From NCBI GenBank assembly GCA_017937845.1, contig JAGBCV010000006.1, positions 1 through 64,000 of the forward strand: a stretch of 64,000 nucleotides of DNA, written 5' to 3'. This stretch comes from Clostridia bacterium (GTDB taxonomy: Bacteria; Bacillota; Clostridia; Oscillospirales; CAG-272). The translations under genes were made by a program, and so were the position numbers. Within the stretch, counting starts at the first letter, position 1; each line of letters starts with the position of its first letter. Below, piece by piece: positions 1-12,453 of the stretch. The notes beneath the pieces were generated by a model that saw only the letters and a program-made list of their open reading frames with translations, did not search any database and was not told the DNA's origin.

Positions 1-1
1 C

Positions 2-180
2 AACCGCTTCATTCCGCTTTGCGCGGTCCTGCTCGGCGCTCTCATCGGCGTCGCGGCGTTTTATGTTTATCCGTCTATCATCCCGGCGGATAACGTCATC
101 GTGGCATTGCTCATCGGCGCGGCTTCCGGCTGGGCTGCGACGGGTGCGTATGAGACGGGGAAGGGGCTGGGAAAGGAATG
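2..180 (+). CDS. 3' end of a membrane protein gene (start is outside the window)
   Basis: Open frame from the window edge to TGA at 178-180. Hydrophobic C-terminus ...IIPADNVIVALLIGAASGWAATGAYETGKGLGKE. Followed by an intrinsic terminator. Confidence 0.3.
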
Positions 181-188
181 AATAATAT

Positions 189-232
189 AAAACAGTTTCT
201 TGTTTTTATACAGGAAACTGTTTCTTTTTTTC
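189..232 (+). terminator. Rho-independent terminator
   Basis: Inverted repeat aaacagtttcttg/caggaaactgttt followed by a T-run. Confidence 0.6.
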
Positions 233-420
233 GAAATTTAACATTTTTTAGTCAAAAAACGCTGAAAATTGCATAAAATTTAACAAAATCTTTGAATAAT
301 CTGCAATGAAATTCTTGAAAAATAGGAAAAAACATGATAAAATGAAAACGGAGGAAAGCATCTAATAATATCCGTATCATTTTATTTGTCCTCAAATTTA
401 GATGAAACGGAGGGAAGGAG

Positions 421-1023
421 ATGTATTGGAAAATGAAAGAATTTGATATAGCATATGAAAAAGCGGAATTGGTTCTGAAAGAAATGAATTATAAAAAAGA
501 TAGAATGATTCCGACAGCAACTATTATTGACACCGTAGAAAAAATGTTGAAAGTGGATGTTAGGTTTGCGCTTTATGATTTTACCAAACTAAGTTCTGCG
601 ATGCCGGGTAAAAAAATCAACCTTGATGATTATGGCGCAGCAATGGCTGTTGATAACAACAGGGTGAATATCTTACTTAATGAAAATGAAACTCCGGAAA
701 TGCAACGATTTTCTTTAGTTCATGAGTTAGGACATTTAATGACACAAAAAGAGGTTGTTACTCAACCATATCGTGTAAGTACTCATATTGATATGGATAT
801 TACATCGATTCCGAAAGAAATTTTGGAAAATCCGAAGTATAAATTTCTTGTCAATGAGCAGGTTGCGAATATTTTTGCATTGTTGGTTTTAATGCCATAC
901 GAAATGCTTGTTGATGCAATGAAAAAACAGGATTCTTTTGAAGATGTTGCTAAATTCTTTGGAGTCAATGAATGTGCTCTTGACTCAAGGCTTCAGTTGA
1001 AAGATGCTGAAAAGGTGAACTAA
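421..1023 (+). CDS. ImmA/IrrE-family (DUF955) zinc metallopeptidase
   Basis: HEXXH motif in LVHELGHLM typical of ImmA/IrrE peptidases. Strong RBS ggagggaaggag before the ATG. Low-GC region. Confidence 0.65.
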   Translation: MYWKMKEFDIAYEKAELVLKEMNYKKDRMIPTATIIDTVEKMLKVDVRFALYDFTKLSSAMPGKKINLDDYGAAMAVDNNRVNILLNENETPEMQRFSLVHELGHLMTQKEVVTQPYRVSTHIDMDITSIPKEILENPKYKFLVNEQVANIFALLVLMPYEMLVDAMKKQDSFEDVAKFFGVNECALDSRLQLKDAEKVN

Positions 1024-1623
1024 ATGCAGAACCAATCGAAGAAAAAGGATGCATCCAACTTCGCATGTATAGATCAAGAGCAGAAGAGTTCACCAACTGT
1101 TTCTGATGTTCGAGAACATGAAACGGCTTCTGATATTTTTGATAAAGCATTAGAAGTTCAAGAGATTTCATTAGGTGATCCACAATATATTCTTTGGAAA
1201 GATAATGATCGGTTCAATACGATTGATGAACAGATACCAGGTTTAACAGAAAGATCGGAAGAAGCGTATATACAAATTGCCAATGATATTTTGGAAGCAT
1301 CAACCAGTCAGTTAAAAAAACAGAATGATTCGAAAAACGAACTGAAGGAAAGCTTGGTATGGTTTTTTAAGCGATTTATTTTGCTTCAGTATTGGCTTTT
1401 GATTGTACTAATGTTGGTTAGAATTGTTATACCTACTTATTTGTCCGATAATGTGCTTATTACATATATAACATCAGTCTTTGCTGAAACTTTGGGTGCT
1501 ATTATATTGATGGTAAAATATGCGTTTAATTCCGATCAAGAAGTTCAAATATTGCGCAAATTGAATGATGTTATTGCCAACTTTCAAAAGTTTGGAAACG
1601 ATAAGAAGAAAGATAAAAAATAA
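1024..1623 (+). CDS. Hypothetical protein with two C-terminal transmembrane helices
   Basis: Start overlaps the stop of the ImmA-like gene (taaATG). Hydrophobic segments WFFKRFILLQYWLLIVLMLV and ITSVFAETLGAIILMV. Low GC. Confidence 0.5.
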   Translation: MQNQSKKKDASNFACIDQEQKSSPTVSDVREHETASDIFDKALEVQEISLGDPQYILWKDNDRFNTIDEQIPGLTERSEEAYIQIANDILEASTSQLKKQNDSKNELKESLVWFFKRFILLQYWLLIVLMLVRIVIPTYLSDNVLITYITSVFAETLGAIILMVKYAFNSDQEVQILRKLNDVIANFQKFGNDKKKDKK

Positions 1624-1625
1624 AA

Positions 1626-1667
1626 ATATCGAACGAGTTTACTCGTTCGATATTTTTATTTTTTATC
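1626..1667 (+). terminator. Rho-independent terminator
   Basis: Perfect inverted repeat atatcgaacgag-ttta-ctcgttcgatat followed by a T-run. Confidence 0.7.
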
Positions 1668-1672
1668 TTTAA

Positions 1673-1801
1673 AATCATCATAAAAAACAGCTTGGCGGTC
1701 CGGATGGCGAGCTTGCCGCCGCGACCCGCTATCTCCACCAACGATACGCCATGCCCTATGGCGAGATCGTCGGGATCCTGACCGATGTCGGTACAGAAGC
1801 A
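1673..1801 (+). pseudogene. cotJC: Internal fragment of a CotJC-like Mn catalase gene (corresponds to CotJC residues ~27-68)
   Basis: In-frame translation NHHKKQLGGPDGELAAATRYLHQRYAMPYGEIVGILTDVGTE aligns with CotJC YGGADGELAAALRYLNQRYTIPDKVIGLLTDIGTEE. No start codon. The frame is broken immediately after GGTACAGAAG. Confidence 0.6.
1790..1799. repeat. Left copy of the 10-bp direct repeat GGTACAGAAG (putative attL core)
   Basis: An identical 10-mer is at 10448-10457, in the same codon phase of the split catalase gene. Confidence 0.6.
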
Positions 1802-1897
1802 AACTATCGATCCCAAAAAAAGAAAAGCACAGATACACGAGGAATCCTCTGATTTGAAAATTCCTCTATATCTATGCTGTCCGTCTTTTGAGCCAAA

Positions 1898-2269
1898 TTA
1901 TTCGCAGTTTCTTTCTACGAGGTCAACGAAGAATCTCTGCTTTTCTTTTTCGGTCAAGCGTTCATAACCGAATACCAAGATCTTGGTCTGAATTTCATTG
2001 AATGTTTTTTTACCGAGATTGCGGATGTGGATCAGCGTTTCGTTGGAGAGCGCTTCCACAACGTCGCCGATGGTAAAATAGCCCGCTCTTTTCAGCGCAT
2101 TGGTCGCACGAACGGAAAATTCGATGTCGTCGATGTTCGTGTCGCAAGCCTTTTTGGTAAACGCGACAGAAACACGAACCTTCTGACCGATTACCTCGTA
2201 AATGGTGTCAAGAAATCCGTTTTCCTTTGCAGAATTATAAAGTTCAAGCGCAATTTCTTCTTTTCTCAT
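1898..2269 (-). CDS. Stand-alone RNA polymerase alpha-subunit C-terminal-domain-like protein
   Basis: IEFSVRATNALKRAGYFTIGDVVEALSNETLIHIRNLGKKTFNEIQ matches the RpoA alpha-CTD helix-hairpin-helix ([20 protein letters not shown]...VRNLGRKSLEEV). Confidence 0.55.
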   Translation of the reverse strand: MRKEEIALELYNSAKENGFLDTIYEVIGQKVRVSVAFTKKACDTNIDDIEFSVRATNALKRAGYFTIGDVVEALSNETLIHIRNLGKKTFNEIQTKILVFGYERLTEKEKQRFFVDLVERNCE

Positions 2270-2409
2270 ATCGTATCCCTTTCATTTTTACGGAACACAT
2301 TTTCCCGTTTTTATTCTTTCATAAGAATATTTTAGCACATTTTTTGCGTTCTGTCAACAGGCAAAATTTTTAGTAAGGCAAGAATATGCATATATTTTTG
2401 ATTTTTTTG

Positions 2410-2991
2410 TCAATTTCTGCTGGTTTCCTTCAGATACGATGCTTCCAGATCCGCCATATGGAGCATCACCGCAAGAGGCGTACTTTCGTAAGCGCGGCTG
2501 AGTCCGAAATCACCACCCTTGACCGCGGCGTCAAAGGAGCCCATATGATAGCGGATCGCCAAAAGCTCGGGGACCTCAAGTCTGCCGAAGAACCACTGCA
2601 AGATGATACAGCTCTTTTCGCCGTGACCGATGGGGAATTTTTCGTTGATCTCATAGACCTCCTTTTTCACCCATTGACCGCTCGCCTCATCCTTGACGTT
2701 GCGATATCCCTTTTGGTAAAAATTCACCTTGCAAACGTCATGGAAAAGCGCGCAGATGGCGATGCTTTCGTCCGTCACAGGATATTCGGGATAATTTTTC
2801 GCAACGCGCTTCATGCAATCGTAGACGTTCAGCGAATGTTCAAGAAGCCCGCCGGGATAATTTCCGTGAAATTTCGTGCTGGCAGGCGCTTCAAAAAAGT
2901 CGCTCTTTTCAAGCCAATCGAGGACCTTGTCAAGTCCCTCGCGCTTGATATTCGTGTGGCATATTTCGAGAAATCGTTCTTTGTTTGTCAT
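2410..2991 (-). CDS. HD-domain phosphohydrolase family protein
   Basis: H...HD signature (ALFHDVCK) with later His/Asp residues. 193 aa. Confidence 0.65.
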   Translation of the reverse strand: MTNKERFLEICHTNIKREGLDKVLDWLEKSDFFEAPASTKFHGNYPGGLLEHSLNVYDCMKRVAKNYPEYPVTDESIAICALFHDVCKVNFYQKGYRNVKDEASGQWVKKEVYEINEKFPIGHGEKSCIILQWFFGRLEVPELLAIRYHMGSFDAAVKGGDFGLSRAYESTPLAVMLHMADLEASYLKETSRN

Positions 2992-2992
2992 A

Positions 2993-3556
2993 TCACGCCT
3001 CCTTATCCATCGTTACGGTGAGCTGTACGTTTCCGTCAAAATCCTTCCAAAGAAAAACGCCGTCCTCAAGCGTCATATAACCGTGATGGGTGTCATTCTT
3101 GGGAATCGAAACCGAACCGGGGTTCATATAAACGTAATCTTCATGCGATCTGCAATCCGCGATATGGGTATGTCCATGGAGCAAGACCGTCCCTTTTTTC
3201 ATTTTGGGCAGATTATTTTCATTGTATATATGTCCGTGTGTCGCAAAGATCGTGATCTTTCCCTCGTTTATCATCGCGTAATCCGCCATGATGGGAAAAT
3301 CAAGCACCATTTGGTCGACCTCCGCATCGCAATTTCCGCGGACGCAAAGGATATCGTCCTTTTTCGCGTTGAGCAGATCGATCACCGCCTTCGGTGCGTA
3401 TCCGCTCGGAAGGTCGTTGCGCGGCCCGTGATACAAAATATCACCGAGAAGCAAAAGCCTATCCGCGTTTTCTTTTTCGTAGGCATGGAGAAGCTCACGG
3501 CAGAACGTTTCCGAGCCGTGAATATCCGATGCAATCATCCATTTCATTCCAATCAT
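2993..3556 (-). CDS. yfcE: YfcE/MJ0936-family metallophosphoesterase
   Basis: Metallophosphoesterase motifs IASDIHG, GDILYHG, GNCD, THGH, GHTH. 187 aa. Confidence 0.75.
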   Translation of the reverse strand: MIGMKWMIASDIHGSETFCRELLHAYEKENADRLLLLGDILYHGPRNDLPSGYAPKAVIDLLNAKKDDILCVRGNCDAEVDQMVLDFPIMADYAMINEGKITIFATHGHIYNENNLPKMKKGTVLLHGHTHIADCRSHEDYVYMNPGSVSIPKNDTHHGYMTLEDGVFLWKDFDGNVQLTVTMDKEA

Positions 3557-3724
3557 CCTTTCTGATTTATATGATTTATGAGAATATTATAACAAACTTC
3601 TTTCTTTTTGTCAAATTATATCATTTATTATCTTGACAAATTCTTAATTTTTATATAAAATAAATATATGTTTAATCAAACTTTAACAAGATGTTGTAAA
3701 TACAAGAAAGAATGGAATACGGAC

Positions 3725-4570
3725 ATGAATCAAATTCGCATCTTTGCTGATAGCACCTGCGACCTTACCGCAGAGCTTATCAAAAAGTATCAGATCAATA
3801 TCATCCCTCTCAGCATCGTTCTGGACGATAAAAGTTATTTTGACGGCACCGAGGTCACACCCGACGAGATCTATAAATGGGCAGACGCCAATAAGACCAC
3901 GCCGAAGACCGCGGCGGCATCCTATGAGCAGATTTTCGACGCGATGAAAAGCGCCATGGATGCGGGAGAGGATATCATCTTCTTCGGCATTTCGGGCGAT
4001 ATGAGCAGCACCTGCAACGTCGCGCGCTTTGTCGGACGCGAAAACTACGAGCGTCTTTTCGTCATCGACTCCCGCAACCTTTCGACAGGTATCGGACTTC
4101 AGGTCATCAAGGCAGCGGAAATGGCGGCGGCAGGCAAGACCGCAGAAGAGATCGTCGCATATATCAATCAGAAAAAGGGTGACGTTCGCGCAAGCTTCGT
4201 CATCGATACCCTTACATACCTTGCACGCGGCGGACGTTGCACACCCGTCACCGCGCTGATGGCAAATACCTTGAAGCTCCACCCCATGATCGTCGTCAAG
4301 GACGGCAAAATGGGTGTCAGCAAGAAATTCCTCGGCAAGATGGATTTTGCCCTTGCCAAATACGTTGGCGAACTGACAAAGGACCTTTTGCAGGCGGATA
4401 AATCCCGCGTATTCATCACCCATTCCGGTTGCTCTGAGGCAACCATCGCAAAGGTGCGCTCCATGCTCGAAGACCTCGACTATTTCGACGAGATCCTCGT
4501 AACACGCGCAGGCGGCGTTATCTCCAGCCATTGCGGTCCCAATACTCTCGGCGTTCTTTTCTATATGTAA
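3725..4570 (+). CDS. DegV-family fatty-acid-binding protein
   Basis: IRIFADSTCDL N-terminus and overall DegV architecture. Start taken at the internal ATG (MNQIRIF). Confidence 0.8.
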   Translation: MNQIRIFADSTCDLTAELIKKYQINIIPLSIVLDDKSYFDGTEVTPDEIYKWADANKTTPKTAAASYEQIFDAMKSAMDAGEDIIFFGISGDMSSTCNVARFVGRENYERLFVIDSRNLSTGIGLQVIKAAEMAAAGKTAEEIVAYINQKKGDVRASFVIDTLTYLARGGRCTPVTALMANTLKLHPMIVVKDGKMGVSKKFLGKMDFALAKYVGELTKDLLQADKSRVFITHSGCSEATIAKVRSMLEDLDYFDEILVTRAGGVISSHCGPNTLGVLFYM

Positions 4571-4626
4571 GGATCACCCATTCAATTTGCATTCTTTTTT
4601 CATTTTTAATCTCCTATTAAACCTCC

Positions 4627-4662
4627 GGAAAAGCCCCGCGGATAACGCGGGGCTTTTCCTTT
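4627..4662 (+). terminator. Rho-independent terminator after degV
   Basis: aaagccccgcg-gataa-cgcggggcttt followed by a T-run. Confidence 0.7.
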
Positions 4663-4712
4663 TGCCAGGATCACCATGCAAGCGAAAATTGACAGAAATC
4701 ACAAATTTCCCC

Positions 4713-4741
4713 TTGTATGGAAACGATTTTTATGGTATACT
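4713..4741 (+). promoter_or_regulatory. Sigma-A-like promoter (TTGTAT-17-TGgTATACT) upstream of the mannosidase gene
   Basis: -35 ttgtat at 4713-4718, 17-bp spacer, extended -10 tggtatact at 4733-4741. Confidence 0.45.
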
Positions 4742-4778
4742 GAACACATCAATATTTTATCAATGCAGGAGGAATCCC

Positions 4779-7700
4779 ATGAACGCACAATATCGCAAAG
4801 TCAAAAAATATCATGACATCATCAAAAAGCATCGATATTGCAATCAGACTGCTGTCGGCAATATAACAGTATGCCCTTGCGGTTATAAAGAAGGTCACAC
4901 CCCGCCTCCGCTTTCTGATTTTCAGCCCTATACGGTCGGTACCGATTGGGGTAGCGGATTTGATAGCCACGTTTGGTTCCATTTTGAGTTCAAAATTCCC
5001 GAAAACATGAAAAATAAACCCGTGGAACTGAAGGTCGCTTGCGATAAAGAAGGCGGCGTCGGCTCCAATCCGCAGTTTATTTTGTATATCAACGGCAAGA
5101 TCCGCCAAGGTCTTGATATCCGTCATACATCCGTACCGCTCTATGATATGGACGAAACCTATGACGTATACGTTTACGCTTACACCGGCGCGAGGATCCG
5201 CACAGCAAAGCTGTTCGTTGAACTTTATAACGTCAACACCGTCTGCAACGAGTTTTTCTGGGATATCGACGTACCGTTCGACACGCTTGAATTTACCGAC
5301 GAATATTCCATCGAATACGCCGATATTTTGAAATATCTCGATCATGCAGTTTCCATGCTCGACCTTTATGATCTCGGCTCTGACGAATTTTTCGCTTCCA
5401 TAGAAAAAGCGAAAGCATATTTCGACGCAGAATTTTACGGCAAGTACTGTGGAAACGCTAAAACACAGGTCACCGCCATCGGTCATACGCATATCGACTG
5501 CGCTTGGCTTTGGACACTCAAACAGACAAGAGAAAAGGTACAGCGTTCCTTTGCGACCGTGCTTGAGCTGATGAAGCGCTATCCCGAATACAAATTCATG
5601 TCCTCTCAAGCGTTCCTTTATAAAAACATGAAAGAGGAAGCCCCCGAGCTTTACGAGGAGATCAAGGAACGCATCAAAGAGGGACGCTGGGAATGTGAGG
5701 GTGCAATGTGGGTCGAAGCCGATTGCAACCTTTCCTCCGGCGAAAGCCTTGTCCGTCAGGTCATGTACGGCAAACGCTTCTTCAAGGATGAATTTGGTGT
5801 CGATAATCGCGTATTGTGGCTTCCCGACGTATTCGGCTATGCCGCAGCGCTCCCGCAGATCCTCAAAAAGAGCGGTGTCGATTGGTTCGTGACCTCCAAG
5901 ATCAGCTGGAACGACACCAATATGATGCCCTACGATACCTTTGAATGGTACGGCATCGACGGCACCCCCGTCCACACTTACTTCCTCACCGCATCGGATT
6001 ATCAACTCGGCAAAACACCTCCTCGCGGCACAACCTATAACGCGCAGATCACACCCAAAATGGTCGCAGGCACCATCAAGCGCTATCAGAATAAGGACCT
6101 CAGCAACGACGCGCTCATCACCTATGGTTACGGTGACGGCGGTGGCGGCCCGACCGTAGAAAATCTTGAAACCGCACGCCGTACCGCAAAGGGTATCCCC
6201 GGTGTTCCGCAGACCAAGCTGGAATTTGCAGGTGACTTCCTCACCCGTTTGGAAAAGAAGATGGCAGAAGCGAAGCGCGTTCCTGCATGGCATGGCGAGC
6301 TTTATCTCGAATATCACAGAGGTACCTACACCTCCATTTCCAAGAACAAACGCAACAACCGCAAGAGCGAATTTCTCTACATGAACACCGAAACCATCGG
6401 CAGTATGGCAAAAGCGCTCATCGGTATGCCCTTCCCAAAGGAAAAGCTCCACGAGGGCTGGGAATCGCTTCTCACGAACCAGTTCCACGATATCATTCCC
6501 GGCTCGTCCATTCGTGAGGTATACGAGCAGAGCGATATCGACTACGCAAATCTCATGCAGATCGCAAGCACCGAGCTTTCGACCGCAACGGAAGCGATCG
6601 CAAAGGGCATTTCCGCAGGCAGAGGACATGTCATTTTCAACCCGAACCCGTTCGTCGGCAACGGCATCGTGAAGATCGACGGCAAGAGCGCGTACGTCGT
6701 GGGAATCCCCGCCAAGGGCTACGCCGCGGCAGGACATCTCAAGCTCTATAATCGCATCATCATTCAGAATCAGACCGTGGAAACCGACAAGCTCCGCGTT
6801 CGTTTTGATGAAAACTGGCTCATCGAATCCGTTTACGATAAGATCAATGACCGTGAAGTCATTCGCGAGGGCGAAAAAGCCAATGAGATTCGCGTATACG
6901 CTGACCATCCCGACACCTACGACGCATGGGAATGGCAGGAATACTCCCTTGAGGATTACAAGGTCATCACGGACGTCACGAGTGTTGATATCATCGATGA
7001 CGGCGCAAGACGCGGTATCCGCATCACCCGTCCGTTCATGAAATCCACGATCACACAGACCGTTTGGTTCTATGACGATATCGCCAAGATCGACTTTGAA
7101 ACGGTTGCCGATTGGCACAATCAGCACCAGATGGTCAAGGCGGCATTCCCCGTCGATATCAACTCGATGAAAGCGACCTACGATATCCAGTACGGTACGA
7201 TCGAACGCCCGACCCATAAGAACACCAGCTGGGATAACGCAAAATTTGAGGTCTGCGCGCATAAATACGCCGATCTTTCCGAAGGCGGCTATGGCGTTGC
7301 CATTCTGAGCGATTGCAAATACGGCTACGATATCCATGACGGTCTGATGCAGATTTCCCTTTTCAAGACCCCGACCTCCCCGAACGAAGTTGCCGACCAG
7401 GGCGAGATCGTATTCACGTATTCGCTCTGTCCGCACGCAGGCACGCTCGCAGATTCGAATATCCCCGCGCTGGCATATGACCTCAATAACCCCATGTTTG
7501 CCATCAAGGCGACGGGCGTGAACAGTATTCTTCCCGAAGAATTTTCCATGGTGACATCGAGCGCAGAAAACCTCCTCTGCGAAGTCATCAAGGAAGCGGA
7601 AGATTCCGACGCAACGATCCTCCGATTCTATGAATCCAAGAATATGAAGACCACCGCCGAGATCACCCTCGGTATGCAGGCTGAGCATTGCTACCTCTGC

Positions 7701-7799
7701 GACCTCATGGAAAATGAGCTCGAAGAGCTTCCCATCGTCAAAGGCAAGGTAACCGTCAACGCTCATGGCTTTGAAATTTTGACCCTCAAGGTAAAATAA
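4779..7799 (+). CDS. GH38 alpha-mannosidase (cytoplasmic)
   Basis: GH38 N-terminal signature IGHTHIDCAWLW and DxFGY motifs. RBS aggagg 8 nt before ATG 4779. ~1006 aa. Confidence 0.85.
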   Translation: MNAQYRKVKKYHDIIKKHRYCNQTAVGNITVCPCGYKEGHTPPPLSDFQPYTVGTDWGSGFDSHVWFHFEFKIPENMKNKPVELKVACDKEGGVGSNPQFILYINGKIRQGLDIRHTSVPLYDMDETYDVYVYAYTGARIRTAKLFVELYNVNTVCNEFFWDIDVPFDTLEFTDEYSIEYADILKYLDHAVSMLDLYDLGSDEFFASIEKAKAYFDAEFYGKYCGNAKTQVTAIGHTHIDCAWLWTLKQTREKVQRSFATVLELMKRYPEYKFMSSQAFLYKNMKEEAPELYEEIKERIKEGRWECEGAMWVEADCNLSSGESLVRQVMYGKRFFKDEFGVDNRVLWLPDVFGYAAALPQILKKSGVDWFVTSKISWNDTNMMPYDTFEWYGIDGTPVHTYFLTASDYQLGKTPPRGTTYNAQITPKMVAGTIKRYQNKDLSNDALITYGYGDGGGGPTVENLETARRTAKGIPGVPQTKLEFAGDFLTRLEKKMAEAKRVPAWHGELYLEYHRGTYTSISKNKRNNRKSEFLYMNTETIGSMAKALIGMPFPKEKLHEGWESLLTNQFHDIIPGSSIREVYEQSDIDYANLMQIASTELSTATEAIAKGISAGRGHVIFNPNPFVGNGIVKIDGKSAYVVGIPAKGYAAAGHLKLYNRIIIQNQTVETDKLRVRFDENWLIESVYDKINDREVIREGEKANEIRVYADHPDTYDAWEWQEYSLEDYKVITDVTSVDIIDDGARRGIRITRPFMKSTITQTVWFYDDIAKIDFETVADWHNQHQMVKAAFPVDINSMKATYDIQYGTIERPTHKNTSWDNAKFEVCAHKYADLSEGGYGVAILSDCKYGYDIHDGLMQISLFKTPTSPNEVADQGEIVFTYSLCPHAGTLADSNIPALAYDLNNPMFAIKATGVNSILPEEFSMVTSSAENLLCEVIKEAEDSDATILRFYESKNMKTTAEITLGMQAEHCYLCDLMENELEELPIVKGKVTVNAHGFEILTLKVK

Positions 7800-7807
7800 A
7801 ACAGTAC

Positions 7808-7838
7808 AAAAAATGCACCTGCTCGCAGGTGCATTTTT
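7808..7838. terminator. Bidirectional intrinsic terminator between convergent genes
   Basis: aaaaaatgcacctgc-tcg-caggtgcatttttt. Confidence 0.65.
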
Positions 7839-7846
7839 TCATATAC

Positions 7847-8701
7847 TTACATTTTCACGCCGCCGACAAACACATCTGCGTTGCAATCAAAGACCGCATC
7901 TTCACGAATGACCTCGCCCGTGCTGTCAACGGAGATCTTACCCGAGCGCGGATTTTTGATGGAATCCACGTGTCCGATGACGCTTGCTTCCACGTCGGAA
8001 TATTCAAAGGAAAGATCACAACCCTCCATCGTGCAATCGATCAGACGGAGATTTTTGCAATAGCAAAGGGGCTGTGTACCGATGATCTTACAACGAATGA
8101 GCGTCAGATTCTCCGAAAACCAACCGAGATATTCCCCTTTCACGGTGCTATCCGTAACGGTCACGTTTTTCGCGTGCCAAAAAGCGTCCTTGGTGTCAAA
8201 GTTACTGTTTCGGATGGTGAGGTTTTCCATGTACTGAAAGGAGTATTTTCCTTTCATGGAAAGACCGTCGATCTCTACGTTTTTGCTGTCAAGGAAGATA
8301 TATTCCGAGGTGATTTGCGAGTTTTTGATGTTCACACCGTCGCATTTCCAGCCAAATTCAAGAGAGGTGATATCGGAATCCTTGACCGTCATATTCTGAC
8401 ATTCGCGGAGAATTTTAATGCTGTTAACGTGGCAATTTTTAAGCGTACCGTTTTCGTCATACCACATCGCGGCTCTCGCCTTTTCATCAAATTTCGAGTT
8501 CTCGATGAGAAAATTTCTGACGTGCCAAAGCGGATAACGAAGCGAGAACGAGCAGTTTTTGACCTCGATCCCGTTACATTCCTTCAAAACCGATTCTCCG
8601 TCGGCAGGACCTGCAAACGTGCAATCGACGACCTCCGTATCGACCAAATGATAAAGCGAGCGCTCTTCGTCAAACGTTTTATGTATGATTTGATTTTTCA
8701 T
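7847..8701 (-). CDS. Right-handed beta-helix repeat protein (DUF3737-like)
   Basis: Repeated ~22-aa units (NC.F..., N.T..DS.I) typical of parallel beta-helix proteins. 284 aa. Confidence 0.5.
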   Translation of the reverse strand: MKNQIIHKTFDEERSLYHLVDTEVVDCTFAGPADGESVLKECNGIEVKNCSFSLRYPLWHVRNFLIENSKFDEKARAAMWYDENGTLKNCHVNSIKILRECQNMTVKDSDITSLEFGWKCDGVNIKNSQITSEYIFLDSKNVEIDGLSMKGKYSFQYMENLTIRNSNFDTKDAFWHAKNVTVTDSTVKGEYLGWFSENLTLIRCKIIGTQPLCYCKNLRLIDCTMEGCDLSFEYSDVEASVIGHVDSIKNPRSGKISVDSTGEVIREDAVFDCNADVFVGGVKM

Positions 8702-8764
8702 ATATTTACAACGATTCCTTTGCTTAACTTTTTCCTATTAGTCTATCACAAAAATAGGTCAGTG

Positions 8765-10231
8765 TCAATTCTCACACCCAAAAAGCAATGAATCATTTCC
8801 TTTTTTCTCTTGAATCTCATTCCATTTCACTTGATATTCTCGTCCGTTTCGCAAAATAACAAACGAAAATATCTTTTCGGTGTTTTTCAACCGTACCTCT
8901 GCCCGATCTTCATATACCGTCATATCATCTAAAATCTCCCGAAAAAAGCCTTCTTCGGAAATCGAAAGCTGCAATACCTTCTCCATTTCCGAAAGCCGTT
9001 CTTCCCTTTTATAAAAATGCGCCCTTTCCGAAAGATATTCCTCTCTTGAAATATCCCCCAAAAGATAAAGCTCCCGTAATTTTTTCGTGCATAACTCGTT
9101 TCGTTTCGTAAGCTTTGCCCAAAGGAGCGCCATGACCGCTTGCTTTGCCATATCAATTTCATTTTGAACATTCGCAAGCGTAAGCGAAAGCATCTCTGAA
9201 ACGATATCGTTTTTGATCGAAACAGATGCGTGCTTCCCTTGGCATCGCCAAAGATGATAAATGCCGTTTTTTCGTTTTTGCACCCTTGCCGTCAGAATTT
9301 TCCCGCAAATGCCGCATCGAAGCTTTCCCGAAAAGGGATAGACCGTGCTGTGTTTTTCGCGTACGTTCTTCGTTTTTCGTTCCGATAAAAGCGCCTGCGC
9401 CCGTTCAAAGATTTCCCCGGAAACAATGGGCGTGTGGTGATTTTGAATCACGATCAATTCTTCCTCGCCGTGGTTGTATTTCTTCTCATGCGAAAGATAA
9501 TCCGGCGTGATCGTCTTTTTTTGCACGAGATCACCGCAATATTTCTCATTTTTCAGTATCCGCAAAATGACGGAGGGACTCCATGTTTTTGCGCTTTTGG
9601 GGGATATTCCCACGTCGGAAAGATATCTTGCGATCTCGGAAATGCTTCGCTTTTCTTCACAAAACAGCCGAAAAATGTACCGTACTGTTTCCGCGCCGTT
9701 CTCATTTACGGTCATTTCCCCGTTTTTCACGTCATATCCAAGCAAGCTATGCCCAAAGACCACACCGTTTTCCATGCGCCGTTTCTGTCCCCATTTCACA
9801 CGCTCGGAGGTTCTTCTGCTCTCCTCTTGCGCGATGGAGGAAAGAATCGCCAACCGAAGCTCCGCATCGGCTTCTCTCGTATCAATGCCATCATTCAGAA
9901 AACATACGCCAACACCAAGATGTTTCAGCTCTCTCGTATAAGAAATGCTATCCAAAATATTCCGCGCAAATCGTGAAATTTCTTTTGTCAGAATCAGTTC
10001 AAATTTACCGTCGCGGGCATCTCGCATCATGCGCTTGAAGGCTTCCCTTTTTTTCACGTTCGTTCCCGTCGTTCCCTCGTCGGCGTAAATTTCATATAAA
10101 TTCCATTCGGGATTTTTTTCGATATATTCCCCGAAAAAACGCTTTTGACTTTCAAAGGAGCTTGCCTGTTCTCCCCTGTCTGTGGAAACACGGCAATAGG
10201 CGGCGACGTACTTTTTTTCATTCGATATCAT
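8765..10231 (-). CDS. Large serine recombinase (resolvase domain + recombinase domain + zinc ribbon)
   Basis: N-terminal YCRVSTDRGEQ...SFESQ catalytic Ser motif. 488 aa with a central recombinase domain and CGICG...C zinc ribbon. Sized like SpoIVCA/TnpX-type recombinases. Confidence 0.85.
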   Translation of the reverse strand: MISNEKKYVAAYCRVSTDRGEQASSFESQKRFFGEYIEKNPEWNLYEIYADEGTTGTNVKKREAFKRMMRDARDGKFELILTKEISRFARNILDSISYTRELKHLGVGVCFLNDGIDTREADAELRLAILSSIAQEESRRTSERVKWGQKRRMENGVVFGHSLLGYDVKNGEMTVNENGAETVRYIFRLFCEEKRSISEIARYLSDVGISPKSAKTWSPSVILRILKNEKYCGDLVQKKTITPDYLSHEKKYNHGEEELIVIQNHHTPIVSGEIFERAQALLSERKTKNVREKHSTVYPFSGKLRCGICGKILTARVQKRKNGIYHLWRCQGKHASVSIKNDIVSEMLSLTLANVQNEIDMAKQAVMALLWAKLTKRNELCTKKLRELYLLGDISREEYLSERAHFYKREERLSEMEKVLQLSISEEGFFREILDDMTVYEDRAEVRLKNTEKIFSFVILRNGREYQVKWNEIQEKKGNDSLLFGCEN

Positions 10232-10426
10232 CGGTTTGCGTCCTCATTTTTTCGCGCAAAGGTGCCGTAAAGTGCAAAAATTCCTCCTCCGAGAGCAGTT
10301 TTTTCTCCCATAACACCGCAAAAAATGCATACTGAATCCGCCAAAAAAGCAATCTTTCCATGACTTCACCTCCAAAAAAATACTACCTCATTTTATGAAG
10401 GCTTTCGGTTTTTCAGTCCAAAAAAC

Positions 10427-10858
10427 GCCATATTGTTTGCGCTTGTAGGTACAGAAGAACTCGCCCATCTCGAAATGATTGCAGCGATCCTGTATCAGCT
10501 CACGCGCAATCTCACCCCCGAGGAAATCAAAAAAACGGGCTTTGACACCTATTTTGTCGACCATACCGCGGGAATTTATCCTCAATCCGCAGGCGGAACA
10601 CCGTTTACTGCCGCTTATATCGGCATCAAGGGCGACGTTTTCGCCGATTTGAACGAGGATCTGGCGGCAGAACAGAAGGCGCGTGTAACGTATGATAACA
10701 TTCTTCGTCTCGTAGATGACCCCGACGTCCGTGACCCCATCAAATTCCTCCGCCAAAGAGAGATCACTCATTATCAGCGGTTCGGTGATGCACTTCGTAT
10801 CGCGCAGGATCATGCAGACTGCAAGAATTTTTATGCATATAACCCTGCATTTGACTGA
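10427..10858 (+). pseudogene. cotJC: C-terminal segment of the split CotJC-like Mn catalase gene
   Basis: LVGTEELAHLEMIAAILYQLTRNLTPEEIKKTGF...FTAAYIGIKGDVFADLNEDLAAEQKARVTYDNILRLVDDPDVRDPIKFLRQREITHYQRF aligns along its length with CotJC (IGTEEFAHLEMIATMVYKLT...FLREREIVHSMRF). Upstream in-frame sequence is unrelated, with a stop at 10361. Confidence 0.75.
10448..10457. repeat. Right copy of the 10-bp direct repeat GGTACAGAAG (putative attR core)
   Basis: Identical to 1790-1799. Lies in frame at the GTEE codons of the catalase C-terminal segment. Confidence 0.6.
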
Positions 10859-10934
10859 GCGTAAGTAATTTTCCCAAAAATTGACGGCGATTCTCTGTGT
10901 GAGAATCGCCGTTTCTGTATGAAGAAAACTATCA

Positions 10935-11177
10935 CTATTTTCGATATTTATTATAAAAATCAATCATCAATTTTTCAATTACTTCAAAATCAAATGTTGG
11001 AACTGGACGATGATTACTTTTCGACATCCTGCCACCAAGATTATGTCCAGCGGCGGTTAATGTCCAATCATCAAAGTTATCTTTGATGACTAAGCCCATA
11101 TCCTTCCACATACCATAAACCCACTCGGTGCTCATTCCTACCGCTCTACCTACGAAACGTGCTGACATTCTACTCAT
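10935..11177 (-). CDS. Hypothetical small protein (80 aa), low GC
   Basis: Tightly packed with two upstream genes on the same strand. No recognisable domain. Confidence 0.4.
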   Translation of the reverse strand: MSRMSARFVGRAVGMSTEWVYGMWKDMGLVIKDNFDDWTLTAAGHNLGGRMSKSNHRPVPTFDFEVIEKLMIDFYNKYRK

Positions 11178-11189
11178 AAATTACTCCTT

Positions 11190-11417
11190 TCAATCATCGT
11201 TGGAAAGATACCAACCGTGTTCTCTACGAGGAAGATTCAACGGAAAACGACTGGAAATTGTATTCACAATATCAATTCTCTTAAGATCGAGTTGCAAATA
11301 GTCCTCTGAATCATAATCCATGTCATTGAGAACGGATCGCATATCCGCCTCAACAGAGCGAAGCTCTTTTTCGGTTGCACTTTGCATCCAAGAATCCGTA
11401 ATATAACTAAATTTCAT
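11190..11417 (-). CDS. Hypothetical small acidic protein (75 aa), low GC
   Basis: 3-bp gap to the upstream gene. No recognisable domain. Confidence 0.4.
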   Translation of the reverse strand: MKFSYITDSWMQSATEKELRSVEADMRSVLNDMDYDSEDYLQLDLKRIDIVNTISSRFPLNLPRREHGWYLSNDD

Positions 11418-11419
11418 GG

Positions 11420-12292
11420 TTAACCCTCCTGCATTAAGATTTGTTTTATCTTATCGGGTTCTTGAATTACAAGAAACTCCAATACAGCTTTCATAAAAAA
11501 TTCAACCGTCTTTCCCCCAAGTACTTTGTTGGTAGCAGCAGTTATATCTGAATCGTAAGAAAATATGGAAACAAATCCGCACGCAAAATCCCATGCCGTT
11601 ATAGTTTCGTCATGACTTACAATCTTACAATAACAAAAAATCTTATGTATAATGCTTTGTACTTCATCGCAAGAGGGACTCAAATGTATCATATCCTTTA
11701 ATTCTAAAATAGCAGATAAATATTCATCTTTGGTTTCTTCACTAAGTTCTGGTACAAGTTCATGAGATAACATTTCAAGTCGGTTAATTTCTGTATCCTC
11801 AATATTCTGAATATCATCAATTTGGGATATATACTCTATTGAACTCAAAACTTTTTGCAATTTTTTATCCTTGTCAAGATATTCGATAAAATCGGTCAGA
11901 TAACTATTGAAATCTGTACTTCCCATCAATACATTTGGAGGATATGGAACAAAACCGACTCCTTTAACATATTTCATAAATTCAATCAAAACTTGAAGTT
12001 CCTTGATTTGTTGTTCATATTTTTGAATTAATTCGTTAAGAGAATCTCTAACACTGATTTTTTCTCCCTGAGTCAAATCTTTTATTTGAGCATAAGAAAG
12101 ACCCATTTTTCGACACAAGTATGCATTCCAAACGATTTCCACTTCTTCTTGCGAATAAGTTCTTGGAGTATAATTTTTATTTATAATCCATTCGTTATCA
12201 TTTCTTTTAGGAGAAATCAAACCTTGTCTTTCGCATTCACGAAGAAAATTTCGGTCAATACCTGCTTTTGTTATATCTTGTGTTTTCATGAT
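11420..12292 (-). CDS. MerR-like HTH protein with a ~200-aa C-terminal domain of unknown function
   Basis: N-terminal ITKAGIDRNFLRECERQGLISP...YSQEEVEIV...GLSYAQIKDL follows the MerR HTH pattern. Start taken at MKTQDIT. Low GC. Confidence 0.5.
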   Translation of the reverse strand: MMKTQDITKAGIDRNFLRECERQGLISPKRNDNEWIINKNYTPRTYSQEEVEIVWNAYLCRKMGLSYAQIKDLTQGEKISVRDSLNELIQKYEQQIKELQVLIEFMKYVKGVGFVPYPPNVLMGSTDFNSYLTDFIEYLDKDKKLQKVLSSIEYISQIDDIQNIEDTEINRLEMLSHELVPELSEETKDEYLSAILELKDMIHLSPSCDEVQSIIHKIFCYCKIVSHDETITAWDFACGFVSIFSYDSDITAATNKVLGGKTVEFFMKAVLEFLVIQEPDKIKQILMQEG

Positions 12293-12371
12293 TTTCCCTC
12301 CTTTGTCTATATTATAATAAATGGTATTACACCGTTTCAATAGCTTTTATAAAAATCATTAAATTTTTTGT

Positions 12372-12453
12372 AATAAATATCCACCCTCATATGAAGTGAT
12401 CCAAAAAGTGTCTATCTTTTGAGGTTCATCTCTATAATGGGTGGATATTTATT
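12372..12453. repeat. Hairpin repeat of the AAATATCCACC(C)...(G)GGTGGATATTT family (15-bp perfect arms, 52-bp loop)
   Basis: aataaatatccaccc at 12372-12386 is the reverse complement of gggtggatatttatt at 12439-12453. Related copies at 18493-18523 and 20028-20066. Confidence 0.55.

What the first reader, a model, noticed from the sequence alone, without database searches (positions are those of the whole stretch)
181..1801. The split catalase gene is also truncated at its 5' end against a low-GC ImmA-peptidase island (possible second, nested insertion)
- The cotJC-like frame opens only at 1673, immediately after a TAA. It has no start codon and lacks the first ~25 residues conserved in CotJC.
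- It directly abuts a perfect intrinsic terminator (1626-1667) that ends a strongly AT-rich two-gene block (421-1623).
- Even after precise excision of the 8.65 kb element, the catalase would lack its N-terminus.
- Either a second mobile insertion or deletion hit the same gene, or the locus is a decaying pseudogene.
- No cotJA/cotJB-like genes are seen upstream. The nearest imperfect direct repeat (aaaaaacgctg near 252 vs aaaaaacagctt near 1684) is unconvincing.
Basis: seen in the sequence. Interest (0 to 1): 0.5.

Follow-up and report, generated by a model that had tools for sequence, protein, structure and literature searches.

The report
Prophage end splitting a spore-coat catalase
The "missing start" of this spore-coat catalase gene (cotJC) is the right-hand attachment junction of a temperate phage that inserted into the gene with a serine integrase, a known habit of phages in spore-forming bacteria, and here it lies about 90 bases from a second, unrelated insertion in the same gene.

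Summary
The CotJC-type Mn-catalase frame opens at 1673 after a TAA with no start codon. Orthologs are 197 aa, and the window holds only residues 28-197, in two pieces. The low-GC block (182-1672, GC 0.32) ends in a strong terminator.

The cause is an integrated prophage, not decay and not a small island. Window bases 1-181 are the 3' end of a phage holin. Near-identical metagenome contigs continue upstream into tail-fibre and DarB-like genes. Bases 1677-1695 match exactly the attP arm of related free phages in IMG/VR. In those phages attP lies between the lysis genes and a large serine integrase.

Other genomes carry the matching left junction: cotJA-cotJB-cotJC codons 1-32, attL, then the integrase. 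I therefore expect the missing N-terminus and cotJA/cotJB about 40-46 kb left of the window. I could not find this strain's own attL.

The ImmA-like peptidase and a two-helix membrane protein form a conserved, low-GC two-gene cargo operon. It sits next to the integrase or att end of several temperate elements.

cotJC is a recurrent landing pad with at least three sites, and it is already reported as a target of intervening elements. Verdict: new member of a known kind, moderate interest.

The parts
1..181 (+). 3' end (last 59 codons plus stop) of a 91-aa phage holin. The window starts inside the prophage.
   Evidence: Pfam Phage_holin_5_2 gives E = 7.6e-5 on the fragment. The full gene in contig L002 (99.8% identical to window 1-1800) hits PHROG holin families at 1e-12.
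190..223 (+). Terminator-like hairpin that follows the holin gene.
   Evidence: 14-bp stem followed by a T-run.
315..343 (+). Promoter-like site for the cargo operon: TTGAAA, 17 nt, TAAAAT, with an extended TG.
   Evidence: Consensus scan, 10 of 12 matches. This is a pattern match only.
421..1023 (+). ImmA/IrrE-type (M78) metallopeptidase, 200 aa, with HELGH at residues 101-105. First gene of the low-GC cargo operon.
   Evidence: Pfam PF06114 E = 4.7e-16. PADLOC capP 2e-12 and RmrA hits, which are generic M78 matches. Motif located.
1024..1623 (+). Uncharacterised 199-aa protein with a soluble N-terminal part, two predicted transmembrane helices (about 113-137 and 144-165) and a basic tail. 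Conserved partner of the M78 gene.
   Evidence: No Pfam, NCBIfam or PADLOC hit. Hydropathy. The family has 166 cluster representatives. In all three informative contexts an M78 gene lies immediately upstream.
1618..1661 (.). Bidirectional intrinsic terminator that closes the cargo operon and insulates the catalase remnant.
   Evidence: 20-bp stem. -32.7 kcal/mol, z = -12, and none of 200 shuffles folds as well.
1674..1693 (+). Phage-derived arm (P arm) of attR: ATCATCATAAAAAACAGCTT.
   Evidence: 1677-1695 is a 19/19 match to the attP arm of IMG/VR phages L029 and L052. There is one match in the window against 0.03 expected by chance.
1694..1701 (+). Shared att core GGCGGTCC (GGNGGNCC), the region that contains the crossover.
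   Evidence: Alignment of attR, attP, attL and attB. The sites switch partner within or next to this octamer, most clearly in the L061 attL / L063 attP pair, which carry identical integrases.
1694..1799 (+). Middle fragment of cotJC, about codons 30-65.
   Evidence: tblastn and translation. Pfam Mn_catalase E = 2.5e-43 on the joined fragments.
1790..1799 (+). Left copy of the 10-bp direct repeat GGTACAGAAG, at the left junction of the 8.65 kb element (site 2).
   Evidence: Read directly from the sequence.
8765..10231 (-). Large serine recombinase of the 8.65 kb element. It is unrelated to the phage integrase family (25-29% identity).
   Evidence: Pfam Resolvase, Recombinase and Zn_ribbon_recom. 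Identity matrix.
10448..10457 (+). Right copy of GGTACAGAAG, at the right junction of the 8.65 kb element.
10448..10858 (+). 3' fragment of cotJC, codons about 62-197 plus the stop.

Best explanation
**What it is.** Positions 1674-1701 are the attR junction of a temperate phage, likely 40-46 kb by analogy with relatives. The phage integrated into codons about 28-32 (QLGGP) of the spore-coat Mn-catalase gene cotJC. Integration would have been attP x attB recombination catalysed by a phage large serine integrase.

**What the window shows.** It begins inside the prophage, in the holin gene. Everything from 1 to about 1693-1701 is phage DNA. The low-GC ImmA-like peptidase / two-TM-protein operon (about 230-1667) is the phage's last, att-proximal cargo cassette. 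It has its own promoter-like site and its own terminator.

**What is inferred about the other end.** The missing cotJC codons 1-30, the cotJ promoter and cotJA/cotJB should lie at the other prophage end (attL), directly next to the 3' end of the integrase gene and outside the window.

**Consequences.** cotJC is cut into three pieces by two independent serine-recombinase elements: the phage at site 1 and the 8.65 kb element at site 2. It cannot be expressed in this configuration. The remnant has no start codon, lies behind a strong terminator and is separated from its promoter.

**Shown:** the phage identity of the left flank, the att-arm identity, and the recurrence of the same breakpoint with matching attL, attP and attB in other genomes.

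**Inferred:** that this strain's attL and integrase are intact, and, by analogy with SPbeta/spsM and skin/sigK, that both elements may excise in the sporulating mother cell to rebuild cotJC. I put mother-cell reconstitution at about 0.4. The alternative is that the insertions are simply tolerated because cotJC is dispensable during growth.

**The cassette.** It is most likely a lysogeny-expressed immunity or exclusion-type module, in which an M78 protease works with a membrane partner. Its biochemical role is not established.
For: 1. **The left flank is phage.** Contig L002 is 99.8% identical to window 1-1800. It extends 9.6 kb further left through a DarB-like antirestriction gene (PHROG E = 5.8e-143), a 1250-aa virion-associated gene, a BppU-type tail-fibre gene and the holin whose 3' end is window 1-181.
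2. **Relatives have attP at the matching place.** Relatives were found through the 1250-aa protein (64-72% identity). Contigs L029 and L052 have an intact attP, GTTATCATAAAAAACAGCTTGGTGGACCTAATTGTTTTTTATGATGAT, with 13-bp inverted-repeat arms. It lies between the endolysin and the 3' end of a large serine integrase. Window 1677-1695 matches its left arm and core 19/19.
3. **A related phage is integrated the same way.** L026 sits at the same codon in the same orientation, next to catalase residues 28-197.
4. **Matching attL junctions exist elsewhere.**
   - GTDB MAGs L056 and L061 and IMG/VR contigs L074 and L076 have cotJC codons 1-32 followed by the P' arm (TGTTTTTTATGAT...) and the integrase.
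   - L061 also shows cotJA and cotJB, both confirmed by Pfam, just upstream.
   - L063 carries the same integrase as L061 but an unrecombined attP.
5. **An intact attB exists.** The closest ortholog (L019/P0002) reads ...ATCATTATTTCCCAGCTGGGCGGCCCCGACGG.
6. **The breakpoint recurs.** Of the 120 best short CotJC N-terminal ORFs in the protein collection, about 55 break right after QLGG(P/A/T) with phage-arm tails such as NCFL, DCFL or DCKNR.
7. **The integrase family is large.** At least 4427 proteins score E <= 1e-100, many on 40-46 kb contigs.
8. **The gene is not degraded.** 170 codons are intact, with 154/170 aa identity and 80% nt identity to the intact ortholog.
9. **The literature agrees.** cotJC is listed as a target of phage or intervening elements (10.1101/2021.11.22.469490, citing Abe et al. 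2013; 10.1101/2022.02.25.481979 for Laceyella sacchari).
Against: - **This strain's own attL and integrase were not recovered.**
  - The window stops in the holin gene.
  - Exact-protein look-ups returned only contigs with the same arrangement.
  - The candidates tried (P0121, P0242, P0305, and the L056 integrase) came from other samples or other orientations.
  - A prophage remnant that has lost its left end therefore cannot be excluded.
- **No endolysin near the phage end.** Relatives carry an Amidase_3 endolysin directly before attP. This phage has none in its last 11 kb, which may mean it is lysis-defective.
- **No direct evidence of excision.** No attB- or attP-form contig of this strain was found, so developmental reconstitution rests on analogy alone.
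- **Orientation is not fixed in this phage group.** L073, L099, L105 and the P0242 contexts show the opposite orientation. Placing the integrase at the far end therefore rests on the gene order seen in relatives.
Confidence: 0.88

Rival explanations
1. Prophage remnant. The junction at 1674-1701 is a genuine attR, but the left part of the prophage (integrase, attL, cotJC codons 1-30 and perhaps cotJA/cotJB) has since been deleted. The catalase would then be irreversibly dead.
For: The left end was never observed. Assemblies of this strain break repeatedly inside the phage: the window and contig L004 start at the same base, and contigs are at most 22 kb. No endolysin lies where relatives have one. 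No excised or empty-site allele was recovered.
Against: At least 11 kb of phage genes with long intact ORFs (1135, 1250 and more than 1700 aa) are present in several samples. The attR arm is a perfect match to a functional-looking attP arm. The catalase remnant has no stop or frameshift in 170 codons. Contig breaks in phage regions are common in metagenome assemblies because strains vary; L005, for example, is a variant with a different tail-fibre gene.
Confidence: 0.15
2. The ImmA island is a small independent mobile element, or the footprint of a deletion. On this view it truncated cotJC itself, nested in or beside the other insertion, and owes nothing to phage integration.
For: There is a sharp GC drop (0.32) limited to 182-1672, between two terminators. 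Homologous low-GC cassettes occur in unrelated elements (L105, L107), so the cassette does move between elements.
Against: The block contains no recombinase or transposase and has no flanking repeats. The phage attP arm lies to the right of the cassette (1674-1693), so the cassette is inside the prophage boundary. The break in cotJC coincides to the base with the att core used by phages that lack the cassette (L026, L029, L056, L061).
Confidence: 0.04
3. The gene natively has a shorter N-terminus, or it is an ordinary decaying pseudogene with random truncation.
For: No start codon is present and the remnant lies behind a terminator.
Against: The closest orthologs are 197 aa with a conserved N-terminus. 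The breakpoint is not random; it is shared by dozens of independent lineages. The coding sequence shows no degradation.
Confidence: 0.01

Closest known systems
SPbeta prophage in spsM of Bacillus subtilis (SprA large serine integrase with the SprB directionality factor; PMC4191935, PMC5499854)
   Same: A temperate phage integrated by a large serine integrase inside the coding region of a mother-cell-expressed spore-envelope gene. The integrase gene lies next to the att site. Precise excision would restore the frame.
   Different: The target gene (cotJC, not spsM), the host (uncultured gut Clostridia) and the integrase lineage all differ. No directionality factor or sporulation promoter was identified here, and excision has not been shown. 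The gene is also cut a second time by another element.
skin element in sigK (SpoIVCA) and other sporulation-gene intervening elements: vfbin/spoVFB, vrin/spoVR, gin/gerE, yin/yabG (PMC5595907, PMC5025042, PMC10747680)
   Same: Prophage or prophage-like DNA splits a sporulation gene through a serine recombinase. cotJC itself is named as such a target (Abe et al. 2013, cited in 10.1101/2021.11.22.469490; Laceyella sacchari in 10.1101/2022.02.25.481979).
   Different: Those cases describe a single element per gene. Here two unrelated serine-recombinase elements sit about 90 bp apart. Database contigs show at least three recurrent sites in cotJC, and another lineage is also doubly interrupted (L099).
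ImmR/ImmA of ICEBs1, and the related M78 protease-plus-partner pairs IrrE/DdrO and CapP/CapH
   Same: The first cassette gene is an M78 (ImmA/IrrE) metallopeptidase with an HEXXH motif, encoded next to the integrase or att end of a temperate element.
   Different: No HTH repressor gene is adjacent. The conserved partner is a two-transmembrane protein with no known domain. The match to capP and RmrA is to the generic M78 domain only.
Heterocyst-specific interruption elements of cyanobacteria (for example the fdxN element with XisF)
   Same: Large serine recombinases interrupt genes needed only in a terminally differentiated cell. The related integrase from L056 gives a sub-threshold NCBIfam XisF match (E = 2.2e-40, 139 bits against a cutoff of 375).
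   Different: A different phylum and different genes. The match is family-level similarity only.

Membership tests
Prophage integrated by a large serine integrase (attR junction) | Phage structural or lysis genes are contiguous with the junction. | tested here: met
   The holin 3' end is at window 1-181. L002 adds tail-fibre, DarB-like and 1250-aa phage genes upstream.
Prophage integrated by a large serine integrase (attR junction) | The junction carries one attP arm plus the core, matching the attP of related unintegrated phages, joined to the host attB half-site. | tested here: met
   1677-1695 matches the L029/L052 attP arm 19/19. The sequence to its right is cotJC.
Prophage integrated by a large serine integrase (attR junction) | A cognate large serine integrase (Resolvase + Recombinase + Zn_ribbon_recom) is encoded in the same element. 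| not testable with these tools
   It is present next to attP or attL in relatives (L027, L029, L056, L061, L063). The left end of this prophage lies outside the window, and look-ups did not recover it.
Prophage integrated by a large serine integrase (attR junction) | A reciprocal attL, carrying the other part of the target gene, is present in the same genome. | not testable with these tools
   attL with cotJC codons 1-32 was found in other genomes only. It is not in the window.
Sporulation-gene intervening element (skin / SPbeta type) | The element interrupts the coding sequence of a sporulation, mother-cell-expressed gene. | tested here: met
   The target is a CotJC-type Mn catalase (Pfam E = 2.5e-43). 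Orthologs lie in cotJA-cotJB-cotJC operons. Mother-cell expression is taken from B. subtilis knowledge and was not tested.
Sporulation-gene intervening element (skin / SPbeta type) | Precise excision restores an intact reading frame. | tested here: inconclusive
   For site 2, joining at GGTACAGAAG gives an intact Q28-D197 frame. For site 1 the frame would be restored if attL resembles those of relatives, but this strain's attL is unseen.
Sporulation-gene intervening element (skin / SPbeta type) | Excision is induced in the mother cell by a sporulation-controlled integrase or directionality factor. | not testable with these tools
   This needs expression or junction-PCR data from sporulating cells.
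ImmR/ImmA regulatory pair | An M78 metallopeptidase with an HEXXH motif. | tested here: met
   PF06114 E = 4.7e-16 and HELGH at residues 101-105.
ImmR/ImmA regulatory pair | An adjacent HTH (XRE-type) repressor gene that serves as the protease substrate. | tested here: not met
   There is no ORF with an HTH in 181-420 on either strand. The co-transcribed downstream gene has no HTH and two TM helices. The same M78-plus-TM pairing is seen in L105 and L107.
CotJC / Mn-catalase gene (functional copy) | A complete ORF of about 197 aa with a start codon and the conserved N-terminus, downstream of cotJA-cotJB. | tested here: not met
   Only residues 28-197 are present, in two pieces and without a start. 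There is no cotJA or cotJB in the window.

The most novel reading that the evidence does not exclude
cotJC is a multi-site landing pad, with at least three distinct att sites used by unrelated large serine recombinases. In this genome, rebuilding the gene would need two independent, developmentally timed excisions, a 'double lock' on a spore-coat gene. The phage partner may already be partly domesticated: an ImmA-like protease / membrane-protein cassette sits where its relatives keep the endolysin.
Probability: 0.15. Interest if true: 0.6.

Novelty: new member of a known kind. Interest (0 to 1): 0.35.

Why it matters
- **Annotation.** The result turns an apparent pseudogene into a well-defined prophage boundary. 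The cotJC fragments should be annotated as one interrupted gene, and the prophage extends left of the window.
- **Natural serine-integrase sites.** It documents attP, attB, attL and attR sequences for a large, mostly uncharacterised family of gut-Clostridia serine integrases that target cotJC. It also shows that two or three independent recombinase systems converge on one roughly 600-bp gene. This is useful for cataloguing natural landing pads and for asking why sporulation genes attract temperate elements.
- **If both elements excise during sporulation.** It would be a rare case of one gene needing two separate programmed rearrangements.
- **The M78-plus-two-TM operon.** It is a small, mobile, low-GC module of unknown function that recurs next to integrases, and is a reasonable candidate for a lysogeny-expressed immunity or exclusion function.

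Tried and rejected
- **Missing N-terminus inside the window.** tblastn with a CotJC N-terminus found only the two known fragments. CotJA and CotJB queries found nothing.
- **Empty-site or same-species alleles.** Exact-protein look-ups of the ImmA-like protein and of the downstream SDH_alpha gene returned only contigs with the identical double insertion.
- **Annotated phage genomes (INPHARED).** Megablast of 11.3 kb of the phage end found no match.
- **IMG/VR close relatives of the cassette.** Neither the ImmA-like protein nor ORF2 had any.
- **This strain's own attL.**
A padded version returned many attL-type ORFs.
  - The best candidates came from other samples, other phages or the opposite orientation: P0121, P0242 and integrase P0305.
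  - The L056 integrase occurs only in its own NCBI MAG.
  - The listing of cluster members gave no sample accessions.
Rejected as an att pair. The true arm and core are defined by comparison with attP, attL and attB.
- **PADLOC capP and RmrA hits.** I considered them as evidence for a defence system and rejected that reading. They are generic M78-domain matches, and no partner genes of those systems are present.
Full report
**1. The observation**

- In the frame of the catalase a TAA lies at 1670-1672. The frame then reads N H H K K Q L G G P D G E L A A A T R Y L H Q R Y..., with no start codon.
- Joined at the 10-bp direct repeat GGTACAGAAG (1790-1799 and 10448-10457), the two catalase pieces give an uninterrupted 170-codon frame.
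- That frame matches Pfam Mn_catalase at E = 2.5e-43.
- It aligns to residues 28-197 of 197-aa orthologs, with 154/170 identities to the closest one, P0002.
- So 27 residues are missing by homology.
- The block 182-1672 has GC 0.317. The upstream phage DNA is 0.45 and the rest of the window about 0.48-0.49.
- The block contains an M78/ImmA-type peptidase gene (421-1023) and a second gene (1024-1623).
- It ends in a 20-bp-stem bidirectional terminator (1618-1661, -32.7 kcal/mol, z = -12).
- No cotJA or cotJB homolog exists anywhere in the 64 kb.

**2. What lies to the left**

- Window 2-178 encodes the last 59 residues of a phage holin.
- Looking up the exact ImmA-like protein in public assemblies returned 14 contigs. 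Every contig long enough to reach the junction has the same junction to cotJC.
- One of them, L002, is 99.8% identical to window 1-1800 and runs 9.6 kb further left.
- L002 carries, in order:
  - a DarB-like antirestriction gene (PHROG E = 5.8e-143);
  - a 1250-aa phage gene;
  - a 1135-aa BppU-type tail-fibre gene;
  - a 113-aa gene;
  - the complete 91-aa holin (PHROG holin, 1e-12).
- The window therefore starts inside a prophage, and the ImmA block is the prophage's last operon.

**3. The junction is an att site**

*attP in relatives*
- Using the 1250-aa protein as a probe, IMG/VR yielded 32 related viral contigs of about 40-46 kb.
- In L029 and L052 the region between the Amidase_3 endolysin and the 3' end of a 485-aa large serine integrase reads GTTATCATAAAAAACAGCTTGGTGGACCTAATTGTTTTTTATGATGAT. 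This is a typical attP with 13-bp inverted-repeat arms.
- Window 1677-1695 (ATCATAAAAAACAGCTTGG) is identical to the left arm plus the start of the core. The pattern occurs once in the window, against 0.03 expected by chance.

*attR, attL and attB in other genomes*
- L026, a related phage, is integrated next to catalase residues 28-197 in the same orientation as in the window.
- A pattern built from the core and right arm (GGNGGNCCNNNNTGTTTTTTATGAT) was scanned against one genome per GTDB species. It found two attL junctions, in L056 and L061.
- In these, cotJC codons 1-32 (MWIYEKKLQYPV(K/R)IKNPNPK...SQ(L/A)GGP) are followed by the phage right arm and then the 3' end of a 490-493-aa serine integrase.
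- In L061, Pfam-confirmed cotJB and cotJA lie immediately upstream.
- L063 carries the same integrase as L061 with an unrecombined attP.
- Two more attL junctions were seen in IMG/VR contigs L074 and L076.
- The intact attB in the closest ortholog (L019) reads ATCATTATTTCCCAGCTGGGCGGCCCCGACGG.

*Where the crossover lies*
- Aligning all of these places the crossover in or next to the octamer GGNGGNCC, which is window 1694-1701.
- Codons 1673-1693, including the 'KKQL' that looks like catalase, are therefore phage arm. The arm resembles the host half-site because one integrase binds both.

**4. Recurrence**

- A search with a predicted attL peptide returned 192 short CotJC N-terminal ORFs.
- I classified the 120 listed and corrected five by eye:
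  - about 55 diverge right after QLGG(P/A/T) (site 1), with phage-arm tails such as NCFL, DCFL or DCKNR;
  - about 55 diverge after D(I/V)G(TE) (site 2, the position of the window's 8.65 kb element);
  - about 10 end elsewhere, and some of these are contig ends.
- A second integrase lineage, about 40% identical (L011, L015), uses the same core with the integrase next to the 3' fragment. It creates 173-aa 'MLLQLGGPDGE...' ORFs.
- Phage orientation at site 1 varies among lineages.
- Contigs L099-L102 show another doubly interrupted cotJC. A site-1 phage is combined with a third site after 'QRFGD' (about codon 177) that carries a different 505-aa serine recombinase.
- The integrase family itself is large, with at least 4427 proteins at E <= 1e-100.

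**5. The low-GC cassette**

- The M78 protein has an HELGH motif (residues 101-105) but no adjacent HTH gene.
- Its partner has two predicted transmembrane helices and no hit in Pfam, NCBIfam or PADLOC.
- An exhaustive HMMER search found 166 cluster representatives of the partner. The conserved part is residues about 55-198.
- In both other contexts that could be read, an M78 gene lies immediately upstream:
  - **L105.** A different phage, whose holin is unrelated. The M78 protein is 70% identical and the partner about 46%. The pair again follows the holin, again has GC 0.31 against 0.48, and again abuts cotJC site 1, in the opposite orientation.
  - **L107.** The pair lies next to a tyrosine integrase at the edge of another element.
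- It is therefore a conserved, mobile two-gene operon that sits close to the integrase or att site. That position is typical of lysogeny-expressed genes.
- Relatives of the window phage carry an amidase endolysin in this slot. This phage has none in its last 11 kb.
- What the cassette does is not established. I favour a lysogeny-expressed immunity or exclusion role (inference). It fails the defining ImmR/ImmA feature of an adjacent HTH substrate.

**6. Mechanism and consequences**

*Shown*
- A phage attR sits at 1674-1701.
- cotJC is in three pieces.
- The remnant lacks a start codon, lies behind a strong terminator, and is cut off from its operon.

*Inferred*
- The other end of the prophage carries the integrase, attL, cotJC codons 1-30 and cotJB/cotJA, about 40-46 kb to the left. 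This rests on the genome sizes and gene order of relatives.

*Speculative (about 0.4)*
- Both elements excise in the mother cell to rebuild cotJC, as SPbeta does for spsM and skin for sigK (PMC4191935, PMC5499854, PMC5025042).
- The undamaged frame and the high protein identity relative to DNA identity (91% against 80%) argue against long-standing decay. They do not prove regulated excision.

**7. What is known**

- cotJC has already been named as a target of phage or intervening elements. Abe et al. 2013 is cited for this in 10.1101/2021.11.22.469490, and a skin-like element in cotJC of Laceyella sacchari is reported in 10.1101/2022.02.25.481979.
- This is therefore a new member of a known kind.
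- The modest added value has three parts: the precise att anatomy for a large gut-Clostridia integrase family, the evidence for at least three landing sites in one small gene with double occupancy in two lineages, and the recurrent M78-plus-two-TM cargo operon.

**8. Limits**

- This strain's own attL and integrase were not found despite several attempts.
- A remnant prophage with a lost left end remains possible (about 0.15).

Noticed in passing
window 1790-10457: The 8.65 kb element is bounded by the direct repeat GGTACAGAAG. It carries a 488-aa serine recombinase (8765-10231, minus strand) and non-phage cargo: a GH38 alpha-mannosidase, DUF3737, DegV, a metallophosphoesterase, an HD protein and an RpoA-CTD-like protein. 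Its site (after D(I/V)G-TE, codons about 62-65) is itself a recurrent breakpoint: about 55 of the 120 best short CotJC N-terminal ORFs in the database end there.
   Followed up: partly
L099:7740-10139 (also L100-L102): Another lineage has a doubly interrupted cotJC. A site-1 phage has its integrase next to the 3' fragment. A third breakpoint follows 'QRFGD' (about codon 177), after which come DUF3791 and a 505-aa serine recombinase. cotJC therefore has at least three landing sites.
   Followed up: partly
L011:8545-10522 and L015:8551-10522: A second integrase lineage, about 40% identical, integrates at the same core. Its phage arm supplies an in-frame ATG, giving 173-aa 'MLLQLGGPDGE...' catalase ORFs in many genomes. 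An N-terminally truncated catalase might be expressed from the prophage side.
   Followed up: no
L073, L099, L105 and L089-L098, compared with window 1674-1701: Phages of the same or related integrase families are found in both orientations at site 1. The core (GGGCGGCCC in attB) and the attP arms are nearly palindromic, which may allow this.
   Followed up: partly
window 1-1672 with L002:1-11300, compared with L029:16536-17198 and L026:17978-18820: Relatives have an Amidase_3 endolysin directly before attP. The window phage has no amidase homolog in its last 11 kb, and the M78-plus-two-TM cassette occupies that slot. The prophage may be lysis-defective, or its lysin may be encoded elsewhere.
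   Followed up: partly
window 10860-12450: A second AT-rich stretch (GC about 0.29-0.42) lies just downstream of the catalase stop. It has three minus-strand ORFs of 80, 75 and 306 aa; the last gives a weak MerR-type HTH hit. It may be another small island.
   Followed up: no
window position 1 and L004 position 1: An independent MEGAHIT contig (ERZ28018701 k141_88193) starts at exactly the same base as the window, inside the holin gene. Variant contig L005 carries a different tail-fibre gene and an insertion in the cassette terminator loop. This suggests strain-level phage heterogeneity that breaks assemblies at this point.
   Followed up: no
P0001 (NCBI, 267 aa): The top-scoring catalase homolog contains an internal duplication that begins exactly at the site-2 motif (…MLTDIGTEELGHLE…). 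It may be a recombination scar or a hybrid of two paralogs at that att site.
   Followed up: no
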